Below are positions 7,066 to 38,264 of a DNA stretch of 64,000 nucleotides, one piece after another. The notes beneath the pieces were generated by a model. The model was given only the letters and a program-made list of their open reading frames with translations, was not told the origin of the DNA and ran no database searches. Both the position numbers and the translations under genes were made by a program. Each line of letters opens with the position of its first letter. Position 1 is the first letter of the stretch. The DNA lies in assembly GCA_041659205.1 (NCBI GenBank), contig JBAZYS010000001.1, forward strand, positions 54,090 through 118,089, in the 5' to 3' direction. The DNA comes from Minisyncoccota bacterium (GTDB lineage Bacteria > Patescibacteriota > Minisyncoccia > Phycocordibacterales > UBA9973).

Positions 7066-8328
7066 ATGAAAAATTTTAAAAAAAATGCAATTGTAATTAT
7101 GTTAGCATTTGCTTTAGTTATCGGTTTTAGCTCATTAAATACTGTCCAAGCGGCAACTGCACCTTCTCTTGGCCTAGCGGCAACTTACGGTATTCTTTCA
7201 AGTACTTATACTAATACTGTAGCAGGAACTACTGTTACTGGAGATATTGGATTTACCACAGGTCCAGCAGTTGCTCCCGTGGGAGTACATGCTAATTATG
7301 GTTCTGGCGCCCCTTTTGCTACTGCTGGAATAGATCAAGGTAGTGCTTTAGCTAATCTCAATAGCCAAGCTTGTACTTTCACCTTTGCTAACGGAGCAAT
7401 TGATCTTGCCACTGACGCTACACATGGTCCAATCGGAGTTTATACTCCCGGAGTTTACTGTACTGGAGCTCCCGGTGCTGCAACCATTGGAGCAGGCGGA
7501 ATTACCTTAAATGGCGCAGGAACATATATCTTTAGAATTAACGGTGCACTTACTTCTGTCGCTAATTCAGTAGTGACATTGGCTGGTGGTGCATCAGCTT
7601 GTGATGTATTTTGGACACCAACTTCAGCCACGACACTCGGCGCAAACTCTATATTTAAAGGAACGGATATTGATGCTTCGGGTATTACCGTTGGTAATAC
7701 TGTAAATTGGGTTGGAAGGGCTTTAGCTTTCGGCGGGACGGTCACAACCGATGTAGATAATATTTCTGTTCCATCTTGCTCAGTTCCTCCTCCAGTACCA
7801 CCTGTTCCTCCTTCAATGGCTACTCTTCATGTAATTAAACAAGTAGTGAACAATAGCGGTGGTACTGCTGTTGCATCCGCCTTTAATTTACATTTGAAAC
7901 TTTCAGGAACTGATGTTTCTGGAAGTCCTGCAGTTGGAACTGTGGCACCTGGAACTTCTTATACACTTGCTGCCGGTACATATACAGTAAGTGAAGACGC
8001 AAATAGTCTTCCTTATATACGAAGCTTTACTGGAGACTGTGATTCAAGTGGAAGCATTACGCTCGTAGGTGGTGATAACAAAACATGTACTCTTGTTAAT
8101 GATGACATAGAGCCAGCCGTAATCGTGCCACCAGTAGTTACACCACCAGTTGTAGCACCAGCAGTCATAACTCCAGTAGTTGTAACTCCTCCACCAGTTG
8201 TGCCCAAATTACCTAAAACTGGTTTTGCTCCTAAAGAAGAAAATTCTTCATGGAATATAATAATTTCAGCTGGAATTTTGGGAATGATATTTGCATTCTA
8301 TTTAGCTCGAAGAAAACAGACCAACTAG
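7066..8328 (+). CDS. LPXTG-anchored surface protein with N-terminal ice-binding-like (DUF3494-type) domain and Pro-rich stalk
   Basis: A signal peptide is followed by an N-terminal GILSSTYTNTVAGTTVTGDIGFTTGP region. Pro/Val-rich repeats follow, then a C-terminal LPKTG, a hydrophobic segment and the tail RRKQTN. Confidence 0.8.
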   Translation: MKNFKKNAIVIMLAFALVIGFSSLNTVQAATAPSLGLAATYGILSSTYTNTVAGTTVTGDIGFTTGPAVAPVGVHANYGSGAPFATAGIDQGSALANLNSQACTFTFANGAIDLATDATHGPIGVYTPGVYCTGAPGAATIGAGGITLNGAGTYIFRINGALTSVANSVVTLAGGASACDVFWTPTSATTLGANSIFKGTDIDASGITVGNTVNWVGRALAFGGTVTTDVDNISVPSCSVPPPVPPVPPSMATLHVIKQVVNNSGGTAVASAFNLHLKLSGTDVSGSPAVGTVAPGTSYTLAAGTYTVSEDANSLPYIRSFTGDCDSSGSITLVGGDNKTCTLVNDDIEPAVIVPPVVTPPVVAPAVITPVVVTPPPVVPKLPKTGFAPKEENSSWNIIISAGILGMIFAFYLARRKQTN

Positions 8329-8347
8329 TAAACGTTTTTAGAATTAT

Positions 8348-8962
8348 ATGAATTTATCTAAAATATCATCGAAATGGTTAGTAGTTATTATTGTAGGAAT
8401 TATATTTTCTGCTATAGTAATTTCATTTCTAACTTTTAGTCTACCAGTGAAGGATTCTTTTGCAGAAGCATCTTTTGTTAAAACACAGTCAGTTTTATCA
8501 GCGAAAGCAGATTTAGAATATTCATTTCGTTTGAAGATTCCAAAGATAAATGTAGATGCAACTGTAGAAAATTTAGGTCTTACTTTCGATGGTGCAATGG
8601 AGGTGCCGAAAGGTCCAGCTAACGCTGCTTGGTATAGTTTAGGAACTCCACCTGGGGACATAGGTAGTTCTGTTATCGACGGACACTCTGGGTGGAAAAA
8701 TGGTATACCGGCAGTATTTGATAATTTATATAAATTAAAAAAAGGAGACAAAATATACGTTCAAGACAAGAAAGGGATAGTTACGACTTTTGTTGTACGA
8801 GAGAGTCGCAAATATAATCCAAATGCAGACGCAACAGGAGTATTTACCTCGAGTGACGGTAAAGCACATTTGAATCTTATCACTTGTACGGGTCTATGGA
8901 ATAAAATTTGGAAAAGTCACTCAGAGAGACTTGTAGTTTTTGCTGATAAAGAGCTAAAATAG
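8348..8962 (+). CDS. sortase (transpeptidase)
   Basis: An N-terminal TM anchor is present. The catalytic His is in VIDGHSGW, the Cys in NLITCTG (TLxTC motif), and an Arg in HSERLVVF. It lies 20 nt downstream of the LPKTG protein gene. Confidence 0.8.
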   Translation: MNLSKISSKWLVVIIVGIIFSAIVISFLTFSLPVKDSFAEASFVKTQSVLSAKADLEYSFRLKIPKINVDATVENLGLTFDGAMEVPKGPANAAWYSLGTPPGDIGSSVIDGHSGWKNGIPAVFDNLYKLKKGDKIYVQDKKGIVTTFVVRESRKYNPNADATGVFTSSDGKAHLNLITCTGLWNKIWKSHSERLVVFADKELK

Positions 8963-9732: not shown

Positions 9733-10941
9733 ATGTTAAATATAGATAAAATAAGAGCAGATTTCAATATTTTAAGCTCAAAAGATCAAACGAAATCAAT
9801 CTATTTAGACAGTGCTTGTATGAGTTTAAAGCCTAAAGTCGTCATCGAGGTAATGAATGATTATTATCTTAATTATCCTGCTTGCGCTGGCAGAAGTTCT
9901 CATAAATTAGGTGACAAAGTTACAAAAAAAATAAAAGAAAGTAGGCAGATTATTTCAAAATTTATAAATGCAAATAGTGAAAATGAAATAATTTTTATAC
10001 GTAATACGACAGAAGGGATAAATTTGCTTGCAAATTCTCTAGGTTTAAAAAAGGGTGATGTTGTTTTGATCTCTGACAAAGAACATAACTCAAATTTAAT
10101 ACCATGGCTACTTTTACGAGATAGGGTAGGTATTATCGTAAAAATAATTCCTTCTAATGAGGACGGGAGTTTTAATTTGGATAATTTTAGTAAATTAATT
10201 TCTAGTGTGAAGTTAGTTTCAATAGTTCATACTTCGAACTTAGATGGAGGAACAAATCCCGCAAAAGAAATAATAGAAATTGCACATAAAAATAATGCTT
10301 TAGTATTTTTAGATGCAGCGCAGAGTATTCCTCATCAGAAAATCGATGTTAGGGATTTAGATGTTGATTTCTTGGCGTTTTCTGGACACAAAATGCTCGG
10401 GCCCACTGGAACTGGAGTTTTTTATGGTAAATATAAATTATTAGAAAAATTAGAACCCTTTATGGTGGGTGGAGATACGGTAGAATTTTCTACTTATGAT
10501 AGTTATAAAATGTTAGAAGCGCCAGATAAATTTGAAGCTGGGCTCCAGGATTATGCTGGAATTATTGGACTAGGGGAAGCAGTGAAATATCTAAGCAAAT
10601 TTAATTATGAAGACATAAAAGAACATGAACTAAAATTAAATACTTATATCACAGAAGAATTACAAAAAATTCCACAAATAAAAATTATTGGACCAAAAAG
10701 TGCAAGGGATCGTTCTGGAATTATTAATTTTTATATAGTCGATACTGATATGCATAAGTTCGCAATAATGCTCGACGAAATGGCAAATATTTCTATTCGT
10801 TCTGGACAGCACTGCGTACACTCTTATTTCAAGGATAAGAAGATTTATAATTCTGCTCGTGTTTCTTTTTATATATATAATACGATGGAAGATGCAGAAA
10901 CATTTATTACTAATTTAAATAAAATATTAAAAATATTATAA
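9733..10941 (+). CDS. sufS: cysteine desulfurase, class V aminotransferase (SufS/CsdA type)
   Basis: The PLP-Lys region is FLAFSGHKMLGPTGTGVFYG. The active-site Cys motif RSGQHCVHS is of the group II (SufS-like) type. Confidence 0.8.
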   Translation: MLNIDKIRADFNILSSKDQTKSIYLDSACMSLKPKVVIEVMNDYYLNYPACAGRSSHKLGDKVTKKIKESRQIISKFINANSENEIIFIRNTTEGINLLANSLGLKKGDVVLISDKEHNSNLIPWLLLRDRVGIIVKIIPSNEDGSFNLDNFSKLISSVKLVSIVHTSNLDGGTNPAKEIIEIAHKNNALVFLDAAQSIPHQKIDVRDLDVDFLAFSGHKMLGPTGTGVFYGKYKLLEKLEPFMVGGDTVEFSTYDSYKMLEAPDKFEAGLQDYAGIIGLGEAVKYLSKFNYEDIKEHELKLNTYITEELQKIPQIKIIGPKSARDRSGIINFYIVDTDMHKFAIMLDEMANISIRSGQHCVHSYFKDKKIYNSARVSFYIYNTMEDAETFITNLNKILKIL

Positions 10942-10945
10942 ATTT

Positions 10946-11884
10946 ATGGCTTGCCTACTCGCTTTAATTATATTCGGAATAATGGGAATATTTAGTGCTT
11001 CACATCGTGCTCTTGCGAAGGAAGCCTTCAGCTGTGTTTTTAAAAGAGTGACTTTTCGTCCATGTGATACTGGTTTTAAAGAAAAAATAAAAGGGAAAAT
11101 TTTATCAAAATTAATTGATCGGTCAGTTTTCTTGGCAAAAATGGTGAATAAACATTATGAAATATTGTCTTGGGTATTTTTCATTTTAATGTTGGGTAGT
11201 ACTGTGTGGGTTTTACAAGGTGGATATAATTTTTATGTTTATGGAAGCTGTAATGGACTCAATGCTAGTGGATTTTGTGCTTTTGATCCAAGTGGGGAAA
11301 ACAATAAAGTGACAGCATTAGGAGATAGCTCTACCTGTGGTACAGTCCAAAAGATAGAAAAAAATTTAACACTAAAAAACACAGACCTTTCTAGTTTTCC
11401 AATCCAAAAAAATGGAGGTGAAGACACTGTTGTTTTCGTCGGTTGTTATGCTTGCGATTACAGTCGGAAAGCTTACCCTGATATTCTAAAATTGATAAAA
11501 GATAAACAAGCAAACTTTATTTTCGCTCATTATCCTGCGAAGGGGGACACAACCTTTTTAGCAAATATCGGATATTGCGTTAATAAAGATTATCCCGAAA
11601 AATATTGGGACCTAAATAATTATTTATTTACCGCAGATAAAAATTTTGTCCTTAATAAAGAAAATGTAGATACAATTCTTACTAGTTTTAACCTTGATGT
11701 GAAAAAGGTAAATATTTGTGCTAATAGCTCAGAAACAAAAAAAGTTATAGATAATCAAATTATTGAGCTAAATAAAACGAATTTATATGGCACTCCTACT
11801 ATCTTCATAAATAATAAAGCTTTTGTGGGGCCAAAACCTTTAAGAGTTTATAAGAGTGCTATAAATAAATACATATTCTTCTAG
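10946..11884 (+). CDS. membrane-anchored DsbA-family thiol:disulfide oxidoreductase
   Basis: The N-terminal hydrophobic region carries two Cys pairs. The thioredoxin fold has CYAC (CxxC) and the cis-Pro motif GTPTIFINNK. Confidence 0.55.
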   Translation: MACLLALIIFGIMGIFSASHRALAKEAFSCVFKRVTFRPCDTGFKEKIKGKILSKLIDRSVFLAKMVNKHYEILSWVFFILMLGSTVWVLQGGYNFYVYGSCNGLNASGFCAFDPSGENNKVTALGDSSTCGTVQKIEKNLTLKNTDLSSFPIQKNGGEDTVVFVGCYACDYSRKAYPDILKLIKDKQANFIFAHYPAKGDTTFLANIGYCVNKDYPEKYWDLNNYLFTADKNFVLNKENVDTILTSFNLDVKKVNICANSSETKKVIDNQIIELNKTNLYGTPTIFINNKAFVGPKPLRVYKSAINKYIFF

Positions 11885-12449: not shown

Positions 12450-13373
12450 ATGATATTTTCGGCAATCGTAACGATAATAGGTCTTTCTCTTTTTGAGACT
12501 ATTTCTTCAGTAGATAATGCAATCATCAATGCAGAAGTTCTTTCTACGATGGGGGAGAAAGCCAGAAAATGGTTTTTAACCTGGGGTATACTTGTGGCTG
12601 TTTTTGTTGTCCGAGGACTCCTTCCCTTTATAATAATTTGGGCTTGTAATCCAACTCTTTCAATTTTCCAAATTTTATCTGCTGCTTGGTCTTCTGACCC
12701 ACTTGTTCAGGAGTCTATTCATAAATCGGCTCCCATTTTACTTGTGGCGGGTGGAGTATTTCTTTTGTTTTTATTTTTACATTGGCTATTTCTTGAAGAC
12801 AAGAAAATGGGGTTACCAAGAGCAGAAAAATTCTTTATGGCAAAAGGGGTTTGGTTTTATGCAGTTGTTTCAGTATTGCTTTCAGTGATATCCTGGTTTG
12901 CGCTAAAAGAAAATAATTTAATGGCTTTCGGAGCGGTGGTGGGTTCAAGTTTGTTTTTTATCACCCACGGTTTTAAGCAAAATGCAGAAGAGGAAGAAAG
13001 GAGGCTTCTAGGCAGCGCACGTTCAGATTTAAGTAAACTTTTTTTTCTAGAAATAATTGATACAACTTTTTCTATTGATGGGGTATTGGGTGCTTTTGCT
13101 TTCACGCTTTCCGTGCCACTTATTTTAATTGGGAATGGATTAGGTGCTCTTTTAGTGCGACAACTTACCATCAGTAACATAGAACGAATTAAAAAATATG
13201 TTTATTTAAAAAATGGCGCAATGTATTCTATCTTAGTTCTTGGAGTTATTATGATATTGCATAGTTTTGGTTTTAAGATTCCAGAATACCTTTCGCCACT
13301 TTCTACTTTTATAATAATTGGATTTTTCTTTTGGAAGTCCAAAATGCACATTAAACTTAATTTAATTAATTAA
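12450..13373 (+). CDS. TerC/DUF475-family integral membrane protein
   Basis: It is polytopic, with repeated S-x-D-N/G motifs (ISSVDNAIIN; FSIDGVLGAF). Confidence 0.55.
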   Translation: MIFSAIVTIIGLSLFETISSVDNAIINAEVLSTMGEKARKWFLTWGILVAVFVVRGLLPFIIIWACNPTLSIFQILSAAWSSDPLVQESIHKSAPILLVAGGVFLLFLFLHWLFLEDKKMGLPRAEKFFMAKGVWFYAVVSVLLSVISWFALKENNLMAFGAVVGSSLFFITHGFKQNAEEEERRLLGSARSDLSKLFFLEIIDTTFSIDGVLGAFAFTLSVPLILIGNGLGALLVRQLTISNIERIKKYVYLKNGAMYSILVLGVIMILHSFGFKIPEYLSPLSTFIIIGFFFWKSKMHIKLNLIN

Positions 13374-16372
13374 TGAAAGATCTAGAGAAAAACTTTGCAG
13401 AAGAATGTGGGAAGTTAAATAAAGCCCAAAAAGAAGCTGTGAGTATTGTAGATGGTCCAGTGATGGTGGTAGCGGGGCCAGGTACAGGGAAAACAAAAAT
13501 ATTAACACTCAATATAGCCAATATTTTAAATAAAACTGATGCAGCTCCTGAGAGTATTTTAGCACTTACTTATACTACGGCTGGTGTTATCTCTATGAGG
13601 GAAAGGCTCCTTGAAGTTATTGGAGACAGGGCTTACAGAGTAAATATCTATACTTTTCATGCATTTTGTGAGCACATCATAAAAGAGTTTTCTTTTTATT
13701 TTGAAGAACTTGAGGGTGCACGAGTTATCGGAGATTTGGAAAGAGTAGAAATAATTGAAACAATAATCAAAAAAAATAAATTTAAGAATTTGGTATCTTT
13801 TCATGATGAGTTTTCTTTTTTAAATAAAATAGTTGATGGAATGCTTGCAATAAAAAAGGAAGGAATTTCTCCTGAAGAGTTTATTTTAAGTTTACCTAAA
13901 TGGAAACACGACCTTCTCTCCGATGAAGATTTATATTATAAGAAAAACTTCGGTGAATATAAAAAAGGAGATATTAAGCCTGCTGAAGAAGAAAAGATAA
14001 ATAAAAAAATTAAAAAAGCGGAAGAGCTCGGAGAAATATTCACACTTTACCAAGACGAGATAAAGAAAAGGGGACTGTACGATTTTTCAGATATGATACT
14101 TTCTGTGAGAGAGGAGACTTCAAAAAATAAAGATTTAAAAGCAGATGTGCAGGAAAAATATCAATATATTCTTGTTGATGAACATCAGGATACTAATGAA
14201 GGGCAGAATACCTTAGTGGAGCTTTTAACTGATGCACCACACTTAAATCAAAAACCAAATTTATTTACTGTGGGAGATGAAAAACAGTCTATTTATCGGT
14301 TTCAAGGTGCAAGTGAAGAAACCTTTTCTCATTTCAAGAGTCTCTATAGAGATATTCATTTTGTTACTCTTATTGAGAATTATCGTTCGGCGCAGAATAT
14401 CCTGGATGCGGCTCATAGTCTCATCATTAAAACAAAAGGACTAGAGGAAAGTGCTCGTCTTCATTCAAATATTAAAGAAAATGAGAAAATAGATGTTCGT
14501 GAATTTTCCAATTATAAATTTGAGCTTTTGTGTGTAGCGCAAGAAATTAAAATTAAAATCAAAGAAGGAGTTCCTCCTAGTGAGATAGCCGTGCTTTATC
14601 GGGCAAATAAAAATGTCTCTGACATAAAGACGATTTTTGAATTTTTTAAGATACCTTATACAATCTTTTCAAAGGATAAAATCCTTGAGGATGCGAATAT
14701 TAGAAATCTAATTAATATTTTGAAAGTTATTCATAATTTAAATGATGATCATCATTTAGGAAAAGTTTTTTTTACTAAATTTTTGAATCTCGATGCTTAT
14801 GATTCAGTTCTTATTCTAGATAAGTATAGATCTTTCCATAAAGAAGAAAAAAAGCATCTTTTTGCCATTATTGAAGATAAAACACTATTAAAAGAAATAG
14901 GTGTTAAAAATTCAGAAGAATTTTTGATTTTAGCAAAAATTATCAAGGAACTAAAAATTGAATCAAATAATCAAACTTTTTCTGATTTCTTTAAAATTTT
15001 CTTGGATAAGATAGGGTATATAAAATATATGCTTTCTTCTAGCGATAGCCGTCTTCAGTTTATAAAACTAGACAAGCTTTTGGACGAAATAAAAAGACAG
15101 GAACAAACAAAAAAAGGATATTGCCTTACAGATTTTATTTATTTTGTTGACTCATTTGCTAAATATAATTTAGATATTAAGAGTACTGACCCTGAAATTG
15201 TTGAGGGAGTATCTTTAATGACTGCTCATGGCTCAAAAGGAAGAGAGTTTGAACAAGTATATATAATAAATGCTACTCGCAAGTCTTGGGAGTCTAGGCG
15301 GGGCGGGGGGAACAGTATTAGTCTGCCTATTTACCAATATGATGGTAATATCGAGGACGAGAGGCGTTTATTTTATGTTGCAATGACACGAGCAAAAAAA
15401 AGTTTGTTCATCTCTTTTGCTCGCACAGATAATGACGGTAAAGAGCATGAAGAATCAGAATTTGTGAAAGAGATTGATGCGTCCTTTAAAAAAGAAGAAA
15501 AAATGAATGAGTTTGAAGAAAAAAATATTGATAAATTAGCTGAATTTTTGAATTCTGAAAAACAAGTAGCCACTTTGTTTGAGGAAAAATATTTGCAGGA
15601 TCTTTTCTTCAAAAGGGGGCTCAATGTATCTGCTTTAAATAATTATTTAGATTGCCCACAAAAATATCTTTATAAAAGTCTTCTTCGAATTCCAGACTTA
15701 TATTCTCCAAGTCTAAAGTTTGGAAGTATTATAGATTATGCCTTGAATAATTTTTTTGAAAAATCTAAAAAGGAAACAAAGATTTTACCAAAATTTGTTC
15801 TTTTGGAAGAATTTGAAAAAGGGTTAAGAAAATATAATCTTCCTGAGGAAGATGAAGAAAAGTTCAGAAAAAGAGGAGGGGAAGCACTGAATGATTATTA
15901 CGATGAATATTCAAATAAATGGAATCCAGAAGTGGAAACACAATTTCATATTGAGAGAAATTTTGAACTAAATAATAAAAAAATTCTAAAGATTAGTGGT
16001 ACTTTAGATAAAGTGGAATATGTAGATGGTTTTTCTTCTCCCACTATAAATGTGATTGATCATAAGACCGGAAAATCTTTTTCAGAGAAAACAAAAGAAC
16101 AAAAAGCCAACTATGAAAGGCAACTTGAATTTTACACACTACTGCTTAAGGATTATGAAAAAAAAGATTTCAAAATCAATAAAAGTGTTCTTGATTTTGT
16201 GGAGAAAAATAAAAAAGGAGAATTTGAACAATATTTTCTTGATATTACAAAAGAACATCTAGATAAATTGCAGGAGGAGATAAACACCTGTGCAAATGAA
16301 GTCTTGTCTATGGAATTTCTTAAAAAAGGATGCAATAAAAAGGATTGTGAATGGTGCCATATTATAAATTAG
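13373..16372 (+). CDS. UvrD/PcrA-family helicase fused to a C-terminal PD-(D/E)XK RecB/Cas4-like nuclease with Cys cluster
   Basis: Walker A is VVAGPGTGKTKIL. The DExQ motif is ILVDEHQDTNEGQ. Motif VI is VAMTRAKKSL. The C-terminal part has VIDHKTGK, QLEFYTLLL (Q-x3-Y) and the Cys ligands C...GCNKKDCEWC. Confidence 0.8.
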   Translation: MKDLEKNFAEECGKLNKAQKEAVSIVDGPVMVVAGPGTGKTKILTLNIANILNKTDAAPESILALTYTTAGVISMRERLLEVIGDRAYRVNIYTFHAFCEHIIKEFSFYFEELEGARVIGDLERVEIIETIIKKNKFKNLVSFHDEFSFLNKIVDGMLAIKKEGISPEEFILSLPKWKHDLLSDEDLYYKKNFGEYKKGDIKPAEEEKINKKIKKAEELGEIFTLYQDEIKKRGLYDFSDMILSVREETSKNKDLKADVQEKYQYILVDEHQDTNEGQNTLVELLTDAPHLNQKPNLFTVGDEKQSIYRFQGASEETFSHFKSLYRDIHFVTLIENYRSAQNILDAAHSLIIKTKGLEESARLHSNIKENEKIDVREFSNYKFELLCVAQEIKIKIKEGVPPSEIAVLYRANKNVSDIKTIFEFFKIPYTIFSKDKILEDANIRNLINILKVIHNLNDDHHLGKVFFTKFLNLDAYDSVLILDKYRSFHKEEKKHLFAIIEDKTLLKEIGVKNSEEFLILAKIIKELKIESNNQTFSDFFKIFLDKIGYIKYMLSSSDSRLQFIKLDKLLDEIKRQEQTKKGYCLTDFIYFVDSFAKYNLDIKSTDPEIVEGVSLMTAHGSKGREFEQVYIINATRKSWESRRGGGNSISLPIYQYDGNIEDERRLFYVAMTRAKKSLFISFARTDNDGKEHEESEFVKEIDASFKKEEKMNEFEEKNIDKLAEFLNSEKQVATLFEEKYLQDLFFKRGLNVSALNNYLDCPQKYLYKSLLRIPDLYSPSLKFGSIIDYALNNFFEKSKKETKILPKFVLLEEFEKGLRKYNLPEEDEEKFRKRGGEALNDYYDEYSNKWNPEVETQFHIERNFELNNKKILKISGTLDKVEYVDGFSSPTINVIDHKTGKSFSEKTKEQKANYERQLEFYTLLLKDYEKKDFKINKSVLDFVEKNKKGEFEQYFLDITKEHLDKLQEEINTCANEVLSMEFLKKGCNKKDCEWCHIIN

Positions 16373-16440: not shown

Positions 16441-16701
16441 ATGCCATTTATAGAAATACACGGAAAAAAGGTACATGTCGAAGAAGGAAGTCATTCTGCG
16501 CAGCATGCAGTTGAATTTTTAACAAAGCATCATGAGGATGCGAAGGCTTTTTTTGCTGCTGCTCATCATGATCATTTAAACGGCGTAGCCCATTTTGAAA
16601 CTAATCGTCCATCAGGCTATCATGGGAGTACTGAGTTTACCTTAATTCACAATGGTGATGGTACATATAATCTAAGAAAAAAAGGGTATCATCTCCTCTA
16701 G
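16441..16701 (+). CDS. small His-rich hypothetical protein (possibly DUF2188-like)
   Basis: 86 aa. It is a paralogue of the next ORF, sharing IxIH...V(E)(F/Y)L...KA(F/Y)(F/Y)...EFTLI. Confidence 0.4.
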   Translation: MPFIEIHGKKVHVEEGSHSAQHAVEFLTKHHEDAKAFFAAAHHDHLNGVAHFETNRPSGYHGSTEFTLIHNGDGTYNLRKKGYHLL

Positions 16702-16821: not shown

Positions 16822-17058
16822 ATGTCCGACATTGTTATCCATAACATAAACGTATCATATGACGAAAGTCATGAAAGGGTAAGAAATTTTGTCGAATATC
16901 TACAAGGCGAAGACAGAAAAGATGAAATGAAGGCTTATTATGAAGAAGCCCGACGGAGTGAAAATGGGAAACTCCATTTGAGTGATAAGATGAATAATGA
17001 GTTTACTCTAATTTGCCAAGAAAATCATATTTGTTTTTTGAGATTGAGGGGAATGTAA
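16822..17058 (+). CDS. small hypothetical protein, paralogue of 16441..16701
   Basis: 78 aa. It shares the EFTLI(H/C) motif and collinear similarity with the upstream ORF. Confidence 0.4.
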   Translation: MSDIVIHNINVSYDESHERVRNFVEYLQGEDRKDEMKAYYEEARRSENGKLHLSDKMNNEFTLICQENHICFLRLRGM

Positions 17059-17080: not shown

Positions 17081-18223
17081 TTAACGGATTATTCCGTCGA
17101 AAACTTTTGTAGTTTCTTCTTCAATTTTTTTATGAATAGTATCTATTTCAGCTGATGTTAAAGTTCTGTCGAGTGAACGATAAGTTATTCGAAAAGCATA
17201 GCTTATTTTTCCAACGCCGAATTTTTCTGTATTTTCATATTTGTCTAGAAGTTTTACTTCTTCGGCTAAATCCGGAGCATTTTCTCTAACTAAATCGAAA
17301 TAATCGTTTGGGATAAATGTATTTGGAACAATAAAAGAAATATCGCGGATGATGGGCGGGTATTTACTAACTTCGACAAATTTTTTTCCAAGTTTTAGTT
17401 GTTTAATTACGCGTTCATCCTCTGACCAGAGTAAACGAATGTCAGGTAAGTCCATACTGATGATTGCTAGACGTTCTAGTCCGAAACCGAAAGCCCAGTT
17501 ACTCCATTCTTCTGGGTTGAGTCCAAGATTTTTTATGATTGTATCGGTCATGATTCCGCAACCGAGGACTTCTATCCATCTGCCAGCAATTTCAACTTCC
17601 ATTTCAAGAGATGGATCCGTATAAGGGAAAGTGTCTTTATTAAATCTATATTTTATGTCAGGCCCGAATACTGCTTTTGCAATATCAGCTAAAACTATTT
17701 GCAAATCTTCGATGCCGATAGTTTTTTTACTTTTTGGAATTAAAAATCCACCATCTATTTGATGGAAGACATTCATGTGGTTGCGGTCAATTTCATCTTT
17801 TCTATATACTTTTCCAAAAGAGAAAAATCCAACCGCTTCACCACGAGCCATTTTTTCTTTTACTTCAGGTTGATTTAAATAGTAATACCACATCACCGTT
17901 GTATGTGGGCGTAAGATATTTGTGTCATCAATAAAATAGGTATCAGAATGTGAACGAGCTGGATGATCCGGTGCAAAATTATATAAATCAAAAGTTACAT
18001 CCACTGGGACTATCTCAGGACTTTTTACGGTATCAAAATCTTTAAAGTCTGGTTGAGATAAAATTCTATGAACTATTTCGTAAATAGGGGAAGCAGGATT
18101 GCGGGATAGGTCGGGCATAGATAGATAGCGCTTCATTCGAAGGGCTTCGGTATCAGTCCTATTTTCTAGCTTAGTAAGTAATTCCTTTTCTCCTGGTAAT
18201 TTAATATCGTAATTGTTACTCAT
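17081..18223 (-). CDS. pheS: phenylalanyl-tRNA synthetase, monomeric type: PheS catalytic core fused to a C-terminal FDX-ACB anticodon-binding domain
   Basis: Class II motifs are HPARSHSDTYF, MNVFHQIDG and AFGFGLERLAI. The C-terminal YPPIIRDISFIV...SYAFRITYRSLDRTLTSAEID resembles the FDX-ACB domain of PheT or mitochondrial PheRS. No pheT is adjacent. Confidence 0.8.
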   Translation of the reverse strand: MSNNYDIKLPGEKELLTKLENRTDTEALRMKRYLSMPDLSRNPASPIYEIVHRILSQPDFKDFDTVKSPEIVPVDVTFDLYNFAPDHPARSHSDTYFIDDTNILRPHTTVMWYYYLNQPEVKEKMARGEAVGFFSFGKVYRKDEIDRNHMNVFHQIDGGFLIPKSKKTIGIEDLQIVLADIAKAVFGPDIKYRFNKDTFPYTDPSLEMEVEIAGRWIEVLGCGIMTDTIIKNLGLNPEEWSNWAFGFGLERLAIISMDLPDIRLLWSEDERVIKQLKLGKKFVEVSKYPPIIRDISFIVPNTFIPNDYFDLVRENAPDLAEEVKLLDKYENTEKFGVGKISYAFRITYRSLDRTLTSAEIDTIHKKIEEETTKVFDGIIR

Positions 18224-18300
18224 TGACTAAATATAAAGAAAAACAGCTTAAAAGTAAAGGTTTTTATGTGAAAAAAGGGCTGGTATTTAATATTATTTTT

Positions 18301-18309
18301 TGCTATAAT
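18301..18309 (+). promoter_or_regulatory. extended -10 promoter element (TGcTATAAT) upstream of gyrB, followed by a GC-rich palindromic leader
   Basis: tgctataat lies at 18301-18309. The leader contains the palindromes ctgtcagtagacag (18312-18325) and gattctgcagaatc (18357-18370), which ends 3 nt before the ATG. Confidence 0.35.
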
Positions 18310-18373
18310 TACTGTCAGTAGACAGCGTCGCGCCTCAATGGACAATTGCGTGACGTGATTCTGCAGAATCAAT

Positions 18374-20434
18374 ATGGCAAAAGAGAAAGCAAAAGAGGAG
18401 ACTTCAAAAGGGCATCATTATGATGCCTCTGACATTTCTGTCCTAGAGGGGCTAGAACCCGTCAGGCGCCGTCCCGGTATGTATATTGGTACAACTGGCC
18501 CTGAAGGATTACATCACCTGGTATGGGAGATTTTCGACAATTCACGTGATGAAGCGATGGGTGGTTTTTGTAATGATATTGAAATAGTCCTTCTCCCTAA
18601 TAATCGTATTCGGGTAGCAGACAATGGCCGAGGTATACCTGTAGATATTCATAAAAAGACGAAAGTTTCTGCTCTGGAAACCGTTATGACCACACTTCAC
18701 GCTGGAGGAAAATTCGGAGGAGAAGGGTATAAAGTTTCCGGAGGTCTTCATGGAGTTGGAGCATCTGTGGTAAATGCGCTCTCTATTTATTGTAAAGCAG
18801 AAGTCCATAAGGATGGTGCAAAATATGTTCAAGAATATTCTCAAGGAAAGAAAAAGTCTGCAGTTAAAAAAGTTGGTAATTCAAAACTTCACGGTACAGT
18901 TATTACTTTTGAGCCCGATGAAGCAATTTTCGGTAAAATTGTTTTTGATTTAAACACAGTAGTTAACCATATTCGTCAGCAAGCATATCTTGTAAAAGAA
19001 TTAAAAATTTTAATTATTGACGCCCGTGAGGCTGAAGGGAAAGTAGATGCAAGTGATGTATTTTATTTTAGAGAGCTTGGATTAGAACTACCTTCCGTTG
19101 CTTTTTATTTCGAGGGTGGGCTTGTTTCTCTTGTAAAATATTACAACAAATTTCAGAAACCAATTCAAAGTAATATTTTTTATGTTGAAAAAGAATTGGA
19201 TAATGTCGGCGTTGAGATAGCCTTACAATATGTAGATGATATTACCGATAGAATTTTTCCTTTTGCGAACAATATTTATACTGGAGAAGGTGGAACCCAT
19301 GTGACTGGTTTTAAAACAGCTCTTACTCGAACCCTCAATACTTACTGTAAAAAGAATGAAATGATGAAAGAGTCTGAAGGTGGATTTACGGGAGACGATG
19401 TTTTGGAAGGTTTGACTGCAGTTATTTCCGTGAAACTTCGAGAAATACAGTTTGAAGGACAGACGAAAGCAAAACTAGGAAGTATGGAAGCTCAGGGTGC
19501 TGTGGCGACAGTTTTCGGAGAAGCTTTTGCTGCTTTCTTAGAGGAAAATCCTGACGAAGCGAAAGGGATAATAAATAAATCAATCCTTGCCCTCAAGGCA
19601 CGTAAGGCAGCGAAAGCAGCAAAAGATTCTGTGCTCCGTAAGGGTGCCTTAGAAGGAATGACTCTTCCGGGTAAGCTTGCAGACTGTCAAAGTAAAAATG
19701 CTTCTGAGTCGGAGCTATTCCTCGTGGAGGGAGATTCCGCAGGAGGTTCAGCAAAACAAGGACGAGATAGGCGTACACAGGCAATACTTCCACTTCGTGG
19801 AAAAATTCTAAATGTGGAACGCGCACGTATAGATAAAATGCTTGCTTCAAAAGAAGTTAAATCTCTCATTATTGCGATGGGTACTTCTATTGGAGATACT
19901 TTTGATTTAGATAAAATGCGTTACCATAAAATAATCATTGCGACAGATGCTGACGTGGACGGTTCACATATTCGAACCTTACTCCTTACCCTTTTCTTTA
20001 GATATTTCAGACAAGTCGTTGAGGCAGGATATATTTATATTGCTCAGCCACCACTTTATAAAATAAAAAAAGGCAAAGAAATTTTTTATGCATATACCGA
20101 TGATGAAAAAGTAAAAATTATTGGTAAGAATGCTGATGCAAGTGATATAGAGGAAGTAGTAGAAGGGGAAGAGTCGCAAGAAGAGGAGACACCAGAAGAA
20201 GTGACAAAAAAATCAAACAAAATTCATATTCAACGCTTTAAAGGTCTCGGAGAAATGAACCCAGAAGAACTCTGGGAAACTACTATGGATCCACAACATC
20301 GTATATTAAAGAGAGTAGATATTTCTGATGCAGAAGAAGCTAATAAAATCTTCGATATTCTCATGGGCTCCGAAGTCCCTCCTCGTAAATCATTCATCCA
20401 ATCTAATGCAAAATTAGCAGAGATTGATATCTAA
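18374..20434 (+). CDS. gyrB: DNA gyrase / topoisomerase IV subunit B (type IIA topoisomerase ATPase subunit)
   Basis: The GHKL ATPase N-terminus is present. TOPRIM is EGDSAGGSAKQGRDRRTQAILPLRGKILNVE. The C-terminal IQRFKGLGEM motif is present. Confidence 0.9.
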   Translation: MAKEKAKEETSKGHHYDASDISVLEGLEPVRRRPGMYIGTTGPEGLHHLVWEIFDNSRDEAMGGFCNDIEIVLLPNNRIRVADNGRGIPVDIHKKTKVSALETVMTTLHAGGKFGGEGYKVSGGLHGVGASVVNALSIYCKAEVHKDGAKYVQEYSQGKKKSAVKKVGNSKLHGTVITFEPDEAIFGKIVFDLNTVVNHIRQQAYLVKELKILIIDAREAEGKVDASDVFYFRELGLELPSVAFYFEGGLVSLVKYYNKFQKPIQSNIFYVEKELDNVGVEIALQYVDDITDRIFPFANNIYTGEGGTHVTGFKTALTRTLNTYCKKNEMMKESEGGFTGDDVLEGLTAVISVKLREIQFEGQTKAKLGSMEAQGAVATVFGEAFAAFLEENPDEAKGIINKSILALKARKAAKAAKDSVLRKGALEGMTLPGKLADCQSKNASESELFLVEGDSAGGSAKQGRDRRTQAILPLRGKILNVERARIDKMLASKEVKSLIIAMGTSIGDTFDLDKMRYHKIIIATDADVDGSHIRTLLLTLFFRYFRQVVEAGYIYIAQPPLYKIKKGKEIFYAYTDDEKVKIIGKNADASDIEEVVEGEESQEEETPEEVTKKSNKIHIQRFKGLGEMNPEELWETTMDPQHRILKRVDISDAEEANKIFDILMGSEVPPRKSFIQSNAKLAEIDI

Positions 20435-31592: not shown

Positions 31593-32975
31593 ATGAAAAA
31601 TATAAAAATGTTTTTTCTTATTTTAATAGTTTTGTTTGGGATAGGGCATTCTGTTGCTTTTGCGGCAGATCCGACTATTTCCTCAATAAGTCCTACGACT
31701 GCACATGTAGGAGATACAGTTACCTTAACAGGGACAAATTTTGGTGTGAATACTATTGTTGAATTCTTTAAAAATTACACCGATGGTACAACTGGGTTTG
31801 TGGGTGTTGGTGTCCCGCTTCCAGGAAATACTTCAACTAGTTATGCACTTACTGTTCCTCCTGGGATAAAAGGCTTAGCCACTATTCGTATTAGAAATAT
31901 GTATTCAGATATTGTAAGCAATACCATTACTTTAAATGTATTACCCATAAGTCCCGTTATTGAATATGTCGGTTCAGGTGTTGCTTATCAGGTTCCACAA
32001 AACACTGCACGTCCTGATTTAACGGAGCTATTTTTACATGGTCAGAATATTGATTCTGATTCCGTTATCGTAATTGATAATCAGATAAATGTGAATTGGG
32101 TTTATTGCACTAAAAATTTTGTAAACGATACTTGTTTTTATGTACCTTCGAGTGTTAGTGCTGGGTCGCACTCAATGCATATTAAACAAAAAGATTCCGG
32201 CCTTACTAGCAATACTGTATCTTTGACTGTTATAGATAAACCAATTATTTCTTACATTTCAAAATATCTTACGGTTGGGGCGGCAATTCAAGCTTGTGGC
32301 ATAGGATTTGATTCGAAATCTGTTGCAGTCTTTGACGGGGTGACAGAAGGTGCGCTTTTGACTCCTGGGGTGACAGTTTGTGCTAATTTTAGTATTCCTG
32401 CAACATTGAGTGCTGGCTCTCATTCGTTTCAGATTAAACAAACTGATACGAATGCATTGAGTAATTTACTCACTATTACAGTTGCTGGTGCTGTCGCTGG
32501 GACACCTCCTCCTGTTGTTCCTCCAAAATCTGATCCAATAATCAAATCTCCTCCAATTACTCCTCCAGCAGAGTGTCTCGGTGGTCCCACTGCTTGGGGA
32601 TGTAATACTCCTCCCACCACCCCTCCAATCCTTGGTTGCTCCGGTGGAAACATCTTCAACACCCAAACGGGTTTACCCTGCGTAAATAATGTAGGCAATG
32701 ACAATCAGTCTCCATCAAACTTTCCTTCACAAAGTTCAGGATCTTCGACTTACGACTTCGGTGATAAAACACTCCGTAACGGAAGCAGGGGGGAAGCAGT
32801 TAGAGAATTACAAAGATATTTAAATGATAAATTAAATCTTGGTTTAGTATTAGATGGAAAACTAGGACCAAAAACAATTGCTGTAATCAAGATGTGGCAA
32901 TCTGATCATGGCTTAGTCGCTGATGGACTCATCGGTAAGATGACTAAAGCGCAGATGCTGGCGGAGGTGAATTAG
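31593..32975 (+). CDS. secreted IPT/TIG-repeat protein with C-terminal Cys-loop plus peptidoglycan-binding (PG_binding_1-like) module; paralogue 1 of 4
   Basis: Signal peptide. IPT-like repeats include ISSISPTTAHVGDTVTLTGTNFG. A Pro-rich linker follows. The C-terminus is LGCSGGNIFNTQTGLPCVNNVGNDNQ...RNGSRGEAVRELQRYLN...DGKLGPKTIAVIKMWQ...GLVADGLIGKMT. Confidence 0.75.
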   Translation: MKNIKMFFLILIVLFGIGHSVAFAADPTISSISPTTAHVGDTVTLTGTNFGVNTIVEFFKNYTDGTTGFVGVGVPLPGNTSTSYALTVPPGIKGLATIRIRNMYSDIVSNTITLNVLPISPVIEYVGSGVAYQVPQNTARPDLTELFLHGQNIDSDSVIVIDNQINVNWVYCTKNFVNDTCFYVPSSVSAGSHSMHIKQKDSGLTSNTVSLTVIDKPIISYISKYLTVGAAIQACGIGFDSKSVAVFDGVTEGALLTPGVTVCANFSIPATLSAGSHSFQIKQTDTNALSNLLTITVAGAVAGTPPPVVPPKSDPIIKSPPITPPAECLGGPTAWGCNTPPTTPPILGCSGGNIFNTQTGLPCVNNVGNDNQSPSNFPSQSSGSSTYDFGDKTLRNGSRGEAVRELQRYLNDKLNLGLVLDGKLGPKTIAVIKMWQSDHGLVADGLIGKMTKAQMLAEVN

Positions 32976-33059
32976 ATTTAAGAAACTACAAAAGCCACTC
33001 CAGGAGAGTGGTTTTTGTTTGTGATATAATATTTATATTAGTAATTAATATTAAATTTT

Positions 33060-34982: not shown

Positions 34983-34992
34983 ATTAATATTA

Positions 34993-35023
34993 AAAAGCGC
35001 TGCCCGAAGGCGGCGCTTTTTTT
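34993..35023 (+). terminator. rho-independent terminator
   Basis: aaaagcgctgcc-cgaa-ggcggcgcttttttt. Confidence 0.65.
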
Positions 35024-35392
35024 GTGGGATGGCTCAAGCGACTAGCCTGAGAGGAGACTGAGAAAGGAGACAGCGTCCTTTCTTGGCAGAACGAGGGATG
35101 CTCATCCTGAGGTCATGAAGACGTATCCTTCGCCTGCGAGTATTGTACCGCTCCTTACCCGACTGCCTTTTCATTTGGTTTCTCCCAAAGAAAATTGTTG
35201 AGAAGGTGAACATTCCACCGCAATGGTGAAACATTCGCAAGAAGGACTTATTCACTTTTGAGTATACTCCCATTGGGATAAAAATTGCAATTGAATACAA
35301 TTTTATTAATTTAGGTTATAATTAATGTATTAGTAATAGCGCCACGCTTTAATGGACTTTGCGCGGCATAATTTCGCAAAATTAATTATTTT

Positions 35393-38206: not shown

Positions 38207-38264
38207 TATTATTAGTTAATCCCAGAAGTAGAGCGAAACCCACTTTTGGACAAGAAAATAAATT

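What the first reader, a model, noticed from the sequence alone, without database searches (positions are those of the whole stretch)
17081..18223. Monomeric, mitochondrial-like PheRS (PheS core plus FDX-ACB domain) with no adjacent pheT
The 380-aa protein has the PheS class II motifs. It ends with a domain resembling the ferredoxin-fold anticodon-binding (FDX-ACB) domain (YPPIIRDISFIV...SYAFRITYRSLDRTLTSAEIDTIHKKIEE). That domain normally forms the C-terminus of bacterial PheT and of the single-chain mitochondrial PheRS. The canonical pheST operon partner is absent from the neighbourhood. A single-chain PheRS in a bacterium is uncommon, and it would lack the PheT editing domain.
Basis: partly seen in the sequence, partly recalled or inferred. 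Interest (0 to 1): 0.6.

Follow-up and report, generated by a model that had tools for sequence, protein, structure and literature searches.

The report
Single-chain phenylalanyl-tRNA synthetase in Paceibacteria
This CPR bacterium, like dozens of related species examined and probably hundreds more, encodes a 380-residue one-piece phenylalanyl-tRNA synthetase built like the mitochondrial enzyme, apparently in place of the textbook two-subunit bacterial enzyme and without its proofreading domain.

Summary
The ORF at 17081-18223 (-) encodes 380 aa with a PheS class II core (Pfam E 6e-52) fused to an FDX-ACB anticodon-binding domain (E 1.9e-20). Its AlphaFold model (pLDDT 94) superposes full-length on human mitochondrial PheRS (TM 0.80). 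The 64-kb window holds no pheT and no second pheS. The organism is a Candidatus Paceibacterota (CPR) bacterium. The gene is widespread rather than an oddity. All 80 species genomes inspected carry an intact orthologue, a pattern scan flagged at least 546 candidate species, and 5,830 protein clusters score E<=1e-100. Core catalytic and Phe-pocket residues are invariant in 81/81 sequences, gyrB is adjacent in 65/66 loci, and dN/dS (0.04-0.07) equals that of GyrB. Published Parcubacteria tables list pheS but not pheT as a core gene, with one FDX-ACB domain per genome. A Paceibacteria genome with canonical pheST has no single-chain gene. The most likely reading is that this is the sole, editing-free housekeeping PheRS, but that is inferred because this genome's remainder was not searchable. 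On an NJ tree with modest support the CPR clade sits in a bacterial branch beside, not inside, the organelle/giant-virus group. I found no paper describing this, and every NCBI name shown is 'hypothetical protein'.

The parts
17081..18223 (-). Complete gene for the 380-aa single-chain PheRS (stop codon at 17081-17083)
   Evidence: ORF listing. An identical protein, P0001, is named 'hypothetical protein WC847_00345, Candidatus Paceibacterota bacterium' by NCBI. AlphaFold2 model: pLDDT 94.3, pTM 0.89.
18107..18223 (-). N-terminal helical region (residues 1-39), running into the bacterial-branch signature R-M-K-R-Y-L-S-M-P-D-L-S-R (residues 29-41)
   Evidence: Helices at residues 12-21 and 25-35 in the model. 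The motif is shared with P0121, P0124, P0125, P0126 and P0127 and is absent from eukaryote/virus members, which have NLHxxxxHP[LI] instead. Its function is not tested.
17399..18106 (-). PheS-type class II catalytic core (residues 40-275)
   Evidence: Pfam PF01409, E 6e-52. Matches E. coli PheS residues 108-327 at 33% identity. Superposes on canonical PheS cores with rmsd about 2.2-2.7 A.
17753..17815 (-). Motif 2 (residues 137-157: GKVYRKDEIDRNHMNVFHQID), for ATP binding and the Phe alpha-amino group
   Evidence: R141, D143, H149, F153, H154 and Q155 are invariant in 81/81 Paceibacteria orthologues and align with E. coli VYRND..H..FHQME.
17618..17629 (-). Phe-pocket wall F199-P200-Y201-T202
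   Evidence: Aligns with E. coli F248-P-F250-T251. F199, P200 and T202 are invariant in 81/81; Y201 is Tyr in 79 and Phe in 2. Tyr at this position is specific to the CPR sequences in the family alignment.
17471..17497 (-). Motif 3 with the specificity alanine (residues 243-251: WAFGFGLER)
   Evidence: A244 aligns with E. coli A294. A244, G246, G248 and R251 are invariant in 81/81.
17369..17398 (-). Inter-domain linker (residues 276-285) following the family-wide PDIRLLWS segment
   Evidence: D261, I262 and R263 are invariant and W266 nearly invariant across the whole family. pLDDT dips to 87 in this block. Proposing it as the hinge for domain swinging is an inference from 3CMQ versus 3TUP.
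17084..17368 (-). FDX-ACB (ferredoxin-fold anticodon-binding) domain, residues 286-380
   Evidence: Pfam PF03147 over the full model, E 1.9e-20. Matches the C-terminus of TIGR00472 pheT_bact, positions 690-797. D294, S296, D327, S341 and R380 are invariant in 81/81 orthologues; R313 and E321 in 80/81.
18224..18373 (.). 150-bp divergent intergenic region shared with gyrB (18374-20434, +); presumed promoter region
   Evidence: Sequence read. Promoter-like matches are at chance level (8 found versus 6.1 +/- 2.7 expected), so no specific promoter is claimed. No Rfam leader or T-box was found. gyrB adjacency is conserved in 65 of the 66 related loci in which gyrB is present.

Best explanation
The gene encodes the housekeeping phenylalanyl-tRNA synthetase of this Paceibacteria (CPR) bacterium. 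It is a single polypeptide in which a PheS-type class II catalytic core is fused to the FDX-ACB anticodon-binding domain that canonical bacteria carry at the end of PheT. Proposed mechanism follows. Shown by sequence and model: the core holds the full Phe/ATP site (motif 2 R141/H149/F153/Q155, pocket F199/Y201/T202/A244, motif 3 R251), and the C-terminal domain is a complete FDX-ACB fold packed against the core as in the closed form of human mitochondrial PheRS. Inferred by analogy with that enzyme: Phe is activated to Phe-AMP; the FDX-ACB domain swings out on a hinge after the PDIRLLWS segment to read the GAA anticodon of tRNAPhe; Phe is transferred to A76; and the protein works without any beta subunit, probably as a monomer. 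Because the B3/B4 editing domain is absent, Tyr- or m-Tyr-tRNAPhe cannot be hydrolysed in cis, so accuracy rests on the synthetic site alone. In this lineage the single-chain gene has replaced pheS-pheT rather than being added to it.
For: Architecture and fold: (TM 0.80, rmsd 3.0 A to 3CMQ over the full length). Active site: core catalytic and Phe-pocket residues are invariant in 81/81 species-level orthologues, including A244 (= E. coli A294) and T202 (= E. coli T251). Housekeeping behaviour: dN/dS is 0.04-0.07 with synonymous sites near saturation, equal to GyrB (0.04-0.06) and tighter than ThrRS (0.10-0.18). All 80 species-representative genomes inspected have an intact orthologue of median 380 aa at 61-91% identity, and gyrB is adjacent in 65/66 loci. 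5,830 protein clusters score E<=1e-100, and all 120 listed have both domains. Replacement rather than addition: no PheT and no second PheS in the window or in 1.36 Mb from 86 related loci. In the published ortholog table of 17 Parcubacteria genomes, pheS is in 16 and pheT is missing from the list of genes found in >=13 genomes; pheS lies 0-2 genes from gyrB as in the window; and FDX-ACB occurs once per genome, including the complete RAAC4 genome (PMC4508563 Tables S1/S2). Conversely, the Paceibacteria MAG PMX_810_sub has an adjacent canonical pheT+pheS pair and exactly one PF03147 and one PF01409, so no single-chain gene (PMC9600506 supplement). Link to tRNA: in 8 related loci a stand-alone tRNA_bind protein (PheT-B2/Trbp111-like) is encoded 53-116 bp upstream on the same strand (664 bp in one locus). 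A monomeric enzyme of this architecture is fully active in mitochondria (PMC3275996).
Against: The rest of this genome (the contig is 239 kb; only 64 kb was available) could not be searched, so a pheST operon elsewhere is not excluded directly. The 1.36-Mb negative sample is weak: about 2 pheT would be expected if there were one per ~0.7-Mb genome at random, giving P about 0.13. No tRNAPhe gene was seen in the window or the loci, so the cognate tRNA was not examined. The protein falls below the curated cut-offs of TIGR00469 pheS_mito (240.5 vs 258.35) and canonical pheS (153.9 vs 237.45), and it scores almost as well against NF051887 'PheS-related mystery ligase SrmL' (235 vs 300), a family whose function NCBI regards as unknown. 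Some Paceibacteria keep canonical pheST, so the replacement is not class-wide. No biochemical data exist.
Confidence: 0.8

Rival explanations
1. It is an accessory paralogue (an 'SrmL-like mystery ligase') that coexists with a canonical PheS/PheT encoded elsewhere in the genome and does something other than bulk tRNAPhe charging, for example acting as an inhibitor-resistant spare or charging a different acceptor.
For: It scores 235 bits against NF051887 SrmL, nearly the same as against pheS_mito. Its nearest non-CPR bacterial relative (Oligoflexia, P0124) scores best against SrmL and sits in an ordinary chromosome of a lineage expected to have pheST. The whole genome was not searchable.
Against: It is below the SrmL cut-off (235 vs 300). 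It is conserved like GyrB and present in every one of the 80 tiny Paceibacteria species genomes inspected, with fixed synteny. Published tables show one FDX-ACB and mostly one tRNA-synt_2d domain per Parcubacteria genome and no core pheT. The one genome with canonical pheST has no single-chain gene. All Phe-specific pocket residues are retained.
Confidence: 0.1
2. It is a recently acquired foreign gene, transferred from a eukaryote, a giant virus or a huge phage, rather than a long-standing bacterial gene.
For: Relatives at 32-42% identity are encoded on 44 IMG/VR viral contigs, many of 200-536 kb and some labelled GVMAG, and on a 340-kb phage-like contig. The best PDB and NCBIfam matches are the mitochondrial enzyme.
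Against: GC content is like the surroundings. Synteny with gyrB is kept in 65/66 loci across lineages only 61-91% identical. In 200 NJ bootstraps the CPR clade was never nested within the eukaryote/virus group (0%) and it grouped with code-25 CPR homologues (67%) and Oligoflexia (62%). A shared bacterial N-terminal motif is absent from the eukaryote/virus members. Single-protein scans did not find the CPR clade on viral contigs.
Confidence: 0.04
3. It is the housekeeping PheRS but is not self-sufficient. It works only with a separately encoded partner, such as a stand-alone tRNA_bind/B2-like protein or a trans-editing factor, or only as a homo-oligomer.
For: A ~140-aa tRNA_bind protein lies immediately upstream in 8 of 86 related loci. 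Class II synthetases are normally oligomeric.
Against: No tRNA_bind gene or editing-factor domain was found in this 64-kb window. The upstream ORF is seen in about 9% of loci. The human enzyme of the same architecture is active as a monomer (PMC3275996).
Confidence: 0.06

Closest known systems
Mitochondrial/organellar single-chain PheRS (human FARS2, yeast MSF1; 'PheRS-M'; NCBIfam TIGR00469; PDB 3CMQ, 3TUP)
   Same: Same two-module chain (alpha-type catalytic module plus beta-type B8/FDX-ACB domain), no editing domain, same motif 2/3 and pocket residues including Thr at the E. coli T251 position. The model superposes full-length on the closed form (TM 0.80) (PMC3275996).
   Different: Only 32-38% identical. 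Encoded on a bacterial chromosome with no transit peptide. It has a distinct N-terminal helical region (RMKRYLSMPDLSR rather than NLHxxxxHPL), lacks the insertion that splits eukaryotic matches into two stretches, and has FPYT instead of FPFT and D157 instead of Glu. It scores below the TIGR00469 cut-off (240.5 vs 258.35). On the NJ tree it forms a branch beside, not within, the eukaryote/virus group.
NCBIfam NF051887 'PheS-related mystery ligase SrmL'
   Same: The 349-position profile aligns end to end with residues 51-369, that is, across both the core and the C-terminal domain (235 bits). Bacterial relatives such as Oligoflexia P0124 score best against it.
   Different: The score is below the curated cut-off of 300, and none of the 11 family members tested here reached it. 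SrmL's function is stated by its name to be unknown, and no paper on it was found. Here the gene behaves as a core gene that replaces pheST.
Canonical bacterial (alpha-beta)2 PheRS (PheS TIGR00468 + PheT TIGR00472)
   Same: The catalytic core is homologous to PheS (33% identity to E. coli over residues 108-327), and the C-terminal domain is homologous to PheT's last domain.
   Different: No N-terminal coiled-coil domain (PF02912) and none of PheT's B1-B7 domains (B2 tRNA_bind, B3/B4 editing, B5, catalytic-like module). No adjacent pheT. 380 aa in place of 327 + 795 aa in E. coli.
Single-chain PheRS genes of giant viruses and huge phages (IMG/VR contigs L011-L054; 340-kb contig L005)
   Same: Same PheS-core + FDX-ACB architecture at a compact size of 340-360 aa.
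   Different: 32-42% identical. They carry the eukaryote-type N-terminus and cluster with the eukaryotic group. The member tested (P0133) passes the pheS_mito cut-off with 308 bits.
Editing-deficient PheRS of Mycoplasma and of mitochondria (from my own knowledge of the work of Ibba and colleagues; PMC3553970 appeared in the searches but was not read here)
   Same: Loss of PheRS proofreading in organisms or compartments with reduced genomes.
   Different: As I recall, Mycoplasma keeps the alpha-beta enzyme with a degenerate editing site, whereas here the whole beta subunit apart from its last domain is gone.

Membership tests
Single-chain (mitochondrial-type) PheRS, PheRS-M / TIGR00469 | PheS-type class II catalytic core with motifs 1-3 and the Phe pocket | tested here: met
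   PF01409 E 6e-52. R141, H149, Q155, F199, T202, A244 and R251 are present and invariant in 81/81 orthologues.
Single-chain (mitochondrial-type) PheRS, PheRS-M / TIGR00469 | FDX-ACB (B8) anticodon-binding domain fused C-terminally in the same chain, with no other beta-subunit domains | tested here: met
   PF03147 over the full model at residues 286-380. No other Pfam domain was found. The pheT_bact profile matches only at positions 690-797.
Single-chain (mitochondrial-type) PheRS, PheRS-M / TIGR00469 | Full-length structural correspondence to solved mitochondrial PheRS | tested here: met
   Foldseek top hits are 3CMQ, 5MGU and 5MGH: TMq 0.80-0.81, rmsd 3.0-3.4 A, E 1e-34. The model has pLDDT 94.3.
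Single-chain (mitochondrial-type) PheRS, PheRS-M / TIGR00469 | Score at or above the curated equivalog cut-off of TIGR00469 (258.35 bits) | tested here: not met
   240.5 bits. The 61%-identical relative P0121 does pass, with 264.3 bits.
Single-chain (mitochondrial-type) PheRS, PheRS-M / TIGR00469 | Falls within the eukaryotic organellar clade (TIGR00469 models yeast MSF1 and its eukaryotic orthologues; this description is from my own knowledge) | tested here: not met
   It is a bacterial chromosomal gene. In the NJ tree the CPR clade was nested within the eukaryote/virus group in 0% of 200 bootstraps.
Single-chain (mitochondrial-type) PheRS, PheRS-M / TIGR00469 | Monomeric quaternary state and Phe-tRNAPhe synthesis without a beta subunit | not testable with these tools
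   Needs purified protein.
NF051887 PheS-related mystery ligase SrmL | Score at or above the curated cut-off (300 bits) | tested here: not met
   235 bits.
NF051887 PheS-related mystery ligase SrmL | Coexistence with a canonical PheS/PheT in the same genome (implied by the 'mystery' label; the family description was not available) | tested here: inconclusive
   No pheST in the window or in 1.36 Mb of related loci. Published tables argue against coexistence in Parcubacteria. This genome was not fully searchable.
Canonical bacterial PheS (TIGR00468) | Score at or above the cut-off (237.45 bits), an N-terminal coiled-coil domain, and a partner pheT | tested here: not met
   153.9 bits. No PF02912 hit. 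No pheT in the window.
Canonical bacterial PheT (TIGR00472) | B1-B7 domains including the B3/B4 editing domain and B5 | tested here: not met
   64.3 bits versus a cut-off of 402.65; only the last ~108 profile positions match.

The most novel reading that the evidence does not exclude
The one-chain PheS-core + FDX-ACB architecture is an old bacterial invention. It is present in several CPR classes (Paceibacteria and the UGA=Gly Gracilibacteria/Absconditabacteria) and in Oligoflexia. On this reading the mitochondrial PheRS of all eukaryotes, and the giant-virus copies, descend from such a bacterial single-chain ancestor rather than from a fusion of alpha and beta pieces made in the early eukaryote. 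That would revise the textbook 'three forms of PheRS' and give a concrete donor-type lineage for FARS2.
Probability: 0.3. Interest if true: 0.8.

Novelty: new member of a known kind. Interest (0 to 1): 0.62.

Why it matters
Reviews describe three PheRS forms and call the mitochondrial enzyme the only monomeric class II catalytic module (PMC3275996). The AARS Online and Douglas et al. classifications treat 'PheRS-M' as mitochondrial-like, and the passages I read do not mention bacteria. Here the same architecture appears as the conserved, apparently sole PheRS of a large free-standing bacterial radiation. Four consequences follow.

1. Translation in many CPR bacteria would run without PheRS proofreading against Tyr and m-Tyr. 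This is a testable prediction about mistranslation in ultra-small cells.
2. It is a clear case of genome streamlining, with 380 aa replacing roughly 1,100 aa.
3. It supplies bacterial sister sequences for asking where the mitochondrial enzyme came from.
4. It has practical effects on annotation. Every NCBI name shown for this family is 'hypothetical protein', and the protein scores below the TIGR00468/TIGR00472 cut-offs. As I recall, those two models are also used as phylogenomic marker genes, in which case pheS and pheT would be scored as missing in these genomes.

Tried and rejected
- **Locating the window's own contig.** The identical protein P0001 is not indexed by contig, so the other ~175 kb of the contig and the rest of the genome could not be read.
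- **Finding a CPR PheT seed.** I could not obtain a CPR PheT sequence for a direct phyletic profile.
- **Closing the RAAC4 argument.** I searched with the Paceibacter (L086) protein hoping to see a named RAAC4 entry. None appeared among the 120 listed hits.
- **Nelson & Stegen Table S2 'pheT' column.** It is really the FDX-ACB Pfam domain, so on its own it cannot separate single-chain from canonical. It is used only for copy number.
- **Viral scans with single proteins.** These found nothing. Only the alignment-based scan worked.
- **Regulatory elements.** Rfam found no T-box or leader upstream. Promoter-like matches in the 150-bp intergenic region are at chance level.
- **tRNAPhe.** None was found in the window or in 86 loci, so identity elements could not be examined.
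- **Literature.** Ten searches found no paper on bacterial or CPR single-chain PheRS, none on 'SrmL', and no statement that PheRS-M occurs in bacteria.
- **Rejected idea: recent transfer from eukaryotes.** See the rival explanations.
- **Rejected idea: a small, tight clade.** The 50%-identity clustering at first suggested this, but the genome scan overturned it.
Full report
**1. The observation**

The ORF at 17081..18223 on the minus strand (ATG start, 380 aa) is real. Pfam assigns residues 40-275 to the PheS-type class II core (PF01409, E 6e-52) and residues 286-380 to the complete FDX-ACB domain (PF03147, profile 1-94 of 94, E 1.9e-20). By sequence, the closest solved structures are human mitochondrial PheRS chains (E about 4e-60). 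Canonical PheS chains cover only the core, and PheT chains only the last ~90 residues. An AlphaFold2 model built on a 37-sequence alignment is very confident (mean pLDDT 94.3, pTM 0.89). It superposes over its whole length on the closed form of human mitochondrial PheRS (3CMQ: TM 0.80, rmsd 3.0 A). The tRNA-bound open form matches less well globally (3TUP: TM 0.59), and canonical PheS chains match only the core.

The window holds no pheT and no second pheS. Six-frame tblastn and phmmer with E. coli PheT and PheS (taken from locus L001) give nothing better than E=2.3 for PheT, and the only PheS hit is this gene. Pfam scans of the other ORFs confirm this.

**2. The organism and the neighbourhood**

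An identical protein is deposited as 'hypothetical protein WC847_00345 [Candidatus Paceibacterota bacterium]' on a 239-kb contig. NCBI now files that name under the phylum Minisyncoccota, which is CPR/Patescibacteria. The window has about 35% GC throughout and carries ordinary housekeeping genes. The neighbours are an AddA-like helicase-nuclease, then two small unannotated ORFs, then the PheRS gene (-), then gyrB (+) across a 150-bp divergent spacer, then a DUF4406 protein, then thrS (-). Rfam finds only two tRNAs (Ser, Thr) and no leader or T-box. Promoter-like matches in the spacer are at chance level.

**3. How widespread it is**

The first protein search returned hundreds of two-domain homologues at 77-91% identity. 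The exhaustive search of 50%-identity representatives at first suggested a tight clade. One representative stood at 61%, then came a drop to 41-45%, and only 242 clusters reached E<=1e-30.

The scan of one genome per GTDB species corrected that impression. That count rests on a motif-2 pattern plus tblastn at E<=1e-3, so it could include some canonical PheS. The best 80 loci are all Parcubacteria-type lineages at 59-91% identity by best segment: Nomura-, Zambryski-, Yanofsky-, Doudna- and Giovannonibacteria, Spechtbacterales, Paceibacter and Minisyncoccia. Many carry the generic TPA label 'uncultured Candidatus Saccharibacteria'. A second protein search, using the Paceibacter orthologue as query, found 5,830 clusters (at 90% identity) with E<=1e-100. 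Canonical PheS cannot reach that score. All 120 listed hits have both domains, and every NCBI name shown is 'hypothetical protein'.

**4. It behaves as a core gene**

- All 80 species-level orthologues are intact, with a median length of 380 aa.
- 80 of 380 alignment columns are invariant.
- gyrB is adjacent in 65 of the 66 loci that contain it, and thrS is within 8 kb in 36 of 41.
- Between the window and two syntenic relatives (L002, L003), the gene has dN/dS of 0.04-0.07 with synonymous sites near saturation. GyrB has 0.04-0.06, ThrRS 0.10-0.18 and TruB 0.12-0.15.

**5. The active site**

Alignment with E. coli PheS identifies the following residues.

| Element | Window residues | E. coli equivalent |
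|---|---|---|
| Motif 2 | R141, D143, H149, F153, H154, Q155, D157 | VYRND..H..FHQME |
| Pocket wall | F199-P200-Y201-T202 | F248-P-F250-T251 |
| Specificity alanine | A244 | A294 |
| Motif 3 | G246, G248, R251 | GxGxER |

All are invariant in 81/81 sequences except Y201 (79 Tyr, 2 Phe) and D157 (70 Asp, 11 Gly). FPYT and Asp157 distinguish the CPR sequences from the FPFT and Glu of the eukaryotic enzymes. In the FDX-ACB domain, D294, S296, D327, S341 and the C-terminal R380 are invariant, and R313 and E321 are nearly so. Several of these are also (nearly) invariant across the whole family, eukaryotes included. This is the signature of an active, Phe-specific enzyme that reads an anticodon. 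The chemistry itself is inferred, not shown.

**6. Is it the only PheRS?**

This could not be tested on this genome. The indirect evidence points one way.

(a) 1.36 Mb from 86 related CPR loci plus the window contain no PheT and no second PheS-like region. This is weak evidence: about 2 pheT would be expected by chance if each genome had one.

(b) Nelson & Stegen's ortholog table for 17 Parcubacteria genomes lists every gene found in at least 13 of them. pheS (COG0016) is in 16, several other aaRS are listed, and pheT is not in the table. Their pheS lies 0-2 genes from gyrB in seven genomes, the same synteny as here. Their Pfam table shows FDX-ACB exactly once per genome (16 hits in 16 genomes, including the complete RAAC4 genome) and tRNA-synt_2d once in 15 of 17 (PMC4508563). 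That paper never discusses PheRS.

(c) The converse case also holds. The Paceibacteria MAG PMX_810_sub (family UBA5738, 0.8 Mb, 90.7% complete) has an adjacent canonical pheT (B3/4, CLM, B5, FDX-ACB) and pheS (with PF02912). Its annotation table holds exactly one PF03147 and one PF01409, so it has no single-chain gene (PMC9600506).

(d) CPR in general do have PheRS beta subunits, often lacking the B2 domain (PMC5370408).

Mutual exclusion of the two systems within one class is what displacement of one functional equivalent by another looks like. I put the probability of sole-PheRS status at about 0.8.

**7. Family structure and origin**

Relatives outside Paceibacteria fall into two groups.

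The first is a bacterial branch that shares the N-terminal motif R[IM]K[RK]xLxxPDL[ST]R. It holds the Paceibacteria clade with P0121 (100% bootstrap). Next come P0125 and P0127, joining at 67%. P0127 has 13 in-frame TGA codons that mostly fall at Gly-dominated columns, including the invariant motif-3 Gly. It therefore comes from a UGA=Gly (code 25) Gracilibacteria/Absconditabacteria-type genome. An Oligoflexia protein, P0124, joins at 62%.

The second is a eukaryote/virus group with the motif NLHxxxxHP[LI]. It is monophyletic in 69% of bootstraps. It contains organellar enzymes (for example a fern protein scoring 384 bits on pheS_mito) and compact 340-360-aa proteins. IMG/VR scanning shows 44 viral contigs with such genes. 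Many are 200-536 kb, one is 1.47 Mb, and several are labelled GVMAG. One 340-kb contig looks like a huge phage.

The CPR clade was never nested inside the eukaryote/virus group (0 of 200 bootstraps). There are caveats. The tree is neighbour-joining on 338 columns, it has a single outgroup (E. coli PheS), and support for the deep nodes is moderate. Even so, recent acquisition from eukaryotes or viruses is unlikely. It remains open whether the organellar enzyme descends from a bacterial single-chain ancestor.

**8. Comparison with known families**

Functionally and structurally the protein is a single-chain PheRS of the type known from mitochondria. [quoted passage not shown]

By the curated NCBIfam criteria it belongs to none of the named families:

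| NCBIfam model | Score (bits) | Cut-off (bits) |
|---|---|---|
| pheS_mito (TIGR00469) | 240.5 | 258.35 |
| SrmL (NF051887) | 235 | 300 |
| pheS (TIGR00468) | 153.9 | 237.45 |

This presumably explains the 'hypothetical protein' label. I file it as a new, bacterial, housekeeping member of the known single-chain PheRS kind, and not as a member of the eukaryotic equivalog or of SrmL.

**9. Extra clue from relatives**

In 8 of the 86 related loci (Doudnabacteria and others), a ~140-aa stand-alone tRNA_bind protein (PF01588, E 3.8e-16) is encoded on the same strand upstream of the single-chain gene. It is homologous to PheT's B2 domain and to Trbp111. The gap is 53-116 bp in seven loci and 664 bp in one. 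This ties the single-chain gene to tRNA handling in those lineages. It may be a free-standing remnant or helper. The window itself has no such gene.

**10. Verdict**

The surprise is one of scale: this is the standard PheRS of a large part of the Paceibacteria, apparently without proofreading, rather than a one-off. I found no description of it in the searchable literature (ten searches). Absence from that library does not prove that it is unpublished. The main untested step is the whole-genome absence of pheST in this organism.

Noticed in passing
L005 (ENA contig GROS21-1...scaffold_19, 340,874 bp), gene at 10001-11047; IMG/VR loci L011-L054: Compact (340-360 aa) single-chain PheS-core + FDX-ACB genes occur on 44 IMG/VR viral contigs. 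Many are 200-536 kb, one is 1.47 Mb, and several are labelled GVMAG. One also lies on a 340-kb contig that looks like a huge phage (PhageMetallopep, PcfJ, SNF2 helicase, dozens of ORFs without Pfam hits). The member tested (P0133) passes the pheS_mito cut-off with 308 bits.
   Followed up: partly
L008 9463-10833 (Logan SRR2107213 contig; also L009): The homologue P0127 has 13 in-frame TGA codons, most of them at Gly-dominated alignment columns and one at the invariant motif-3 Gly. It therefore belongs to a UGA=Gly (code 25) Gracilibacteria/Absconditabacteria-type genome and was deposited with Trp at those sites. It lies next to an F-type ATP synthase operon.
   Followed up: yes
L108 9480-9896; also L075, L096, L117, L122, L124, L132, L133: A ~140-aa stand-alone tRNA_bind (PF01588; PheT-B2/Trbp111-like) ORF lies 53-116 bp upstream of the single-chain PheRS gene on the same strand (664 bp in L122). 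This is seen in 8 of 86 related CPR loci and not in the window.
   Followed up: partly
window 58244-59509 (+): A probable ProRS of only 421 aa (class II core tRNA-synt_2b plus HGTP_anticodon). From general knowledge this is too short to hold the bacterial INS editing insertion, so it would be a second synthetase in this window without a cis-editing domain. The amino-acid assignment rests on the N-terminal sequence and was not tested with a family model.
   Followed up: no
window 13373-16372 (+): The AddA-like UvrD helicase + PD-(D/E)XK nuclease next to the PheRS gene is only 31-41% identical between genomes whose GyrB is 91-95% identical (dN/dS about 0.4). It is either evolving extremely fast or has been replaced by non-orthologous copies at a fixed position.
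   Followed up: no
window 16441-16701 (+) and 16822-17058 (+): Two small ORFs (86 and 78 aa; the first is His-rich) with no Pfam hits sit between the helicase and the PheRS gene. In relatives L002 and L003 that gap is only about 120 bp, so they are an insertion in this genome.
   Followed up: no
window 23075-24025 (+): NusB fused to a C-terminal NUDIX domain in one 316-aa protein. The fusion is conserved in relatives L002 and L003.
   Followed up: no
window 27597-29543 (-): One 648-aa protein combines a D-Ala-D-Ala carboxypeptidase (Peptidase_S11) domain with a PGA_cap capsule-synthesis domain.
   Followed up: no
window 20895-22670 (-): The ThrRS is 591 aa and starts directly at the editing-domain His motif (LRHTLAHL). 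No TGS domain is listed for the orthologues in L002 and L003. It also diverges much faster than the PheRS (66-69% versus 83-89% identity between the same genomes).
   Followed up: partly
window 61496-63010 (+): A queuine tRNA-ribosyltransferase (TGT) of 504 aa matches its Pfam model in four separate stretches, which suggests large insertions.
   Followed up: no
window 7066-8962 and 31593-40442 (+): Surface and secreted gene clusters. An Ice_binding-like + SpaA_2 protein is followed by a sortase. Four large signal-peptide proteins each end or begin with a PG_binding_1 domain. Pilin-like N_methyl proteins lie at 491-1120 and 27023-27577.
   Followed up: no
L055, L058, L059, L061, L062 and many other loci: Many GTDB species-representative records that carry this Paceibacteria-type gene, with the same synteny, are titled 'uncultured Candidatus Saccharibacteria bacterium' (TPA assemblies). 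These titles look like generic or wrong taxonomic labels.
   Followed up: no
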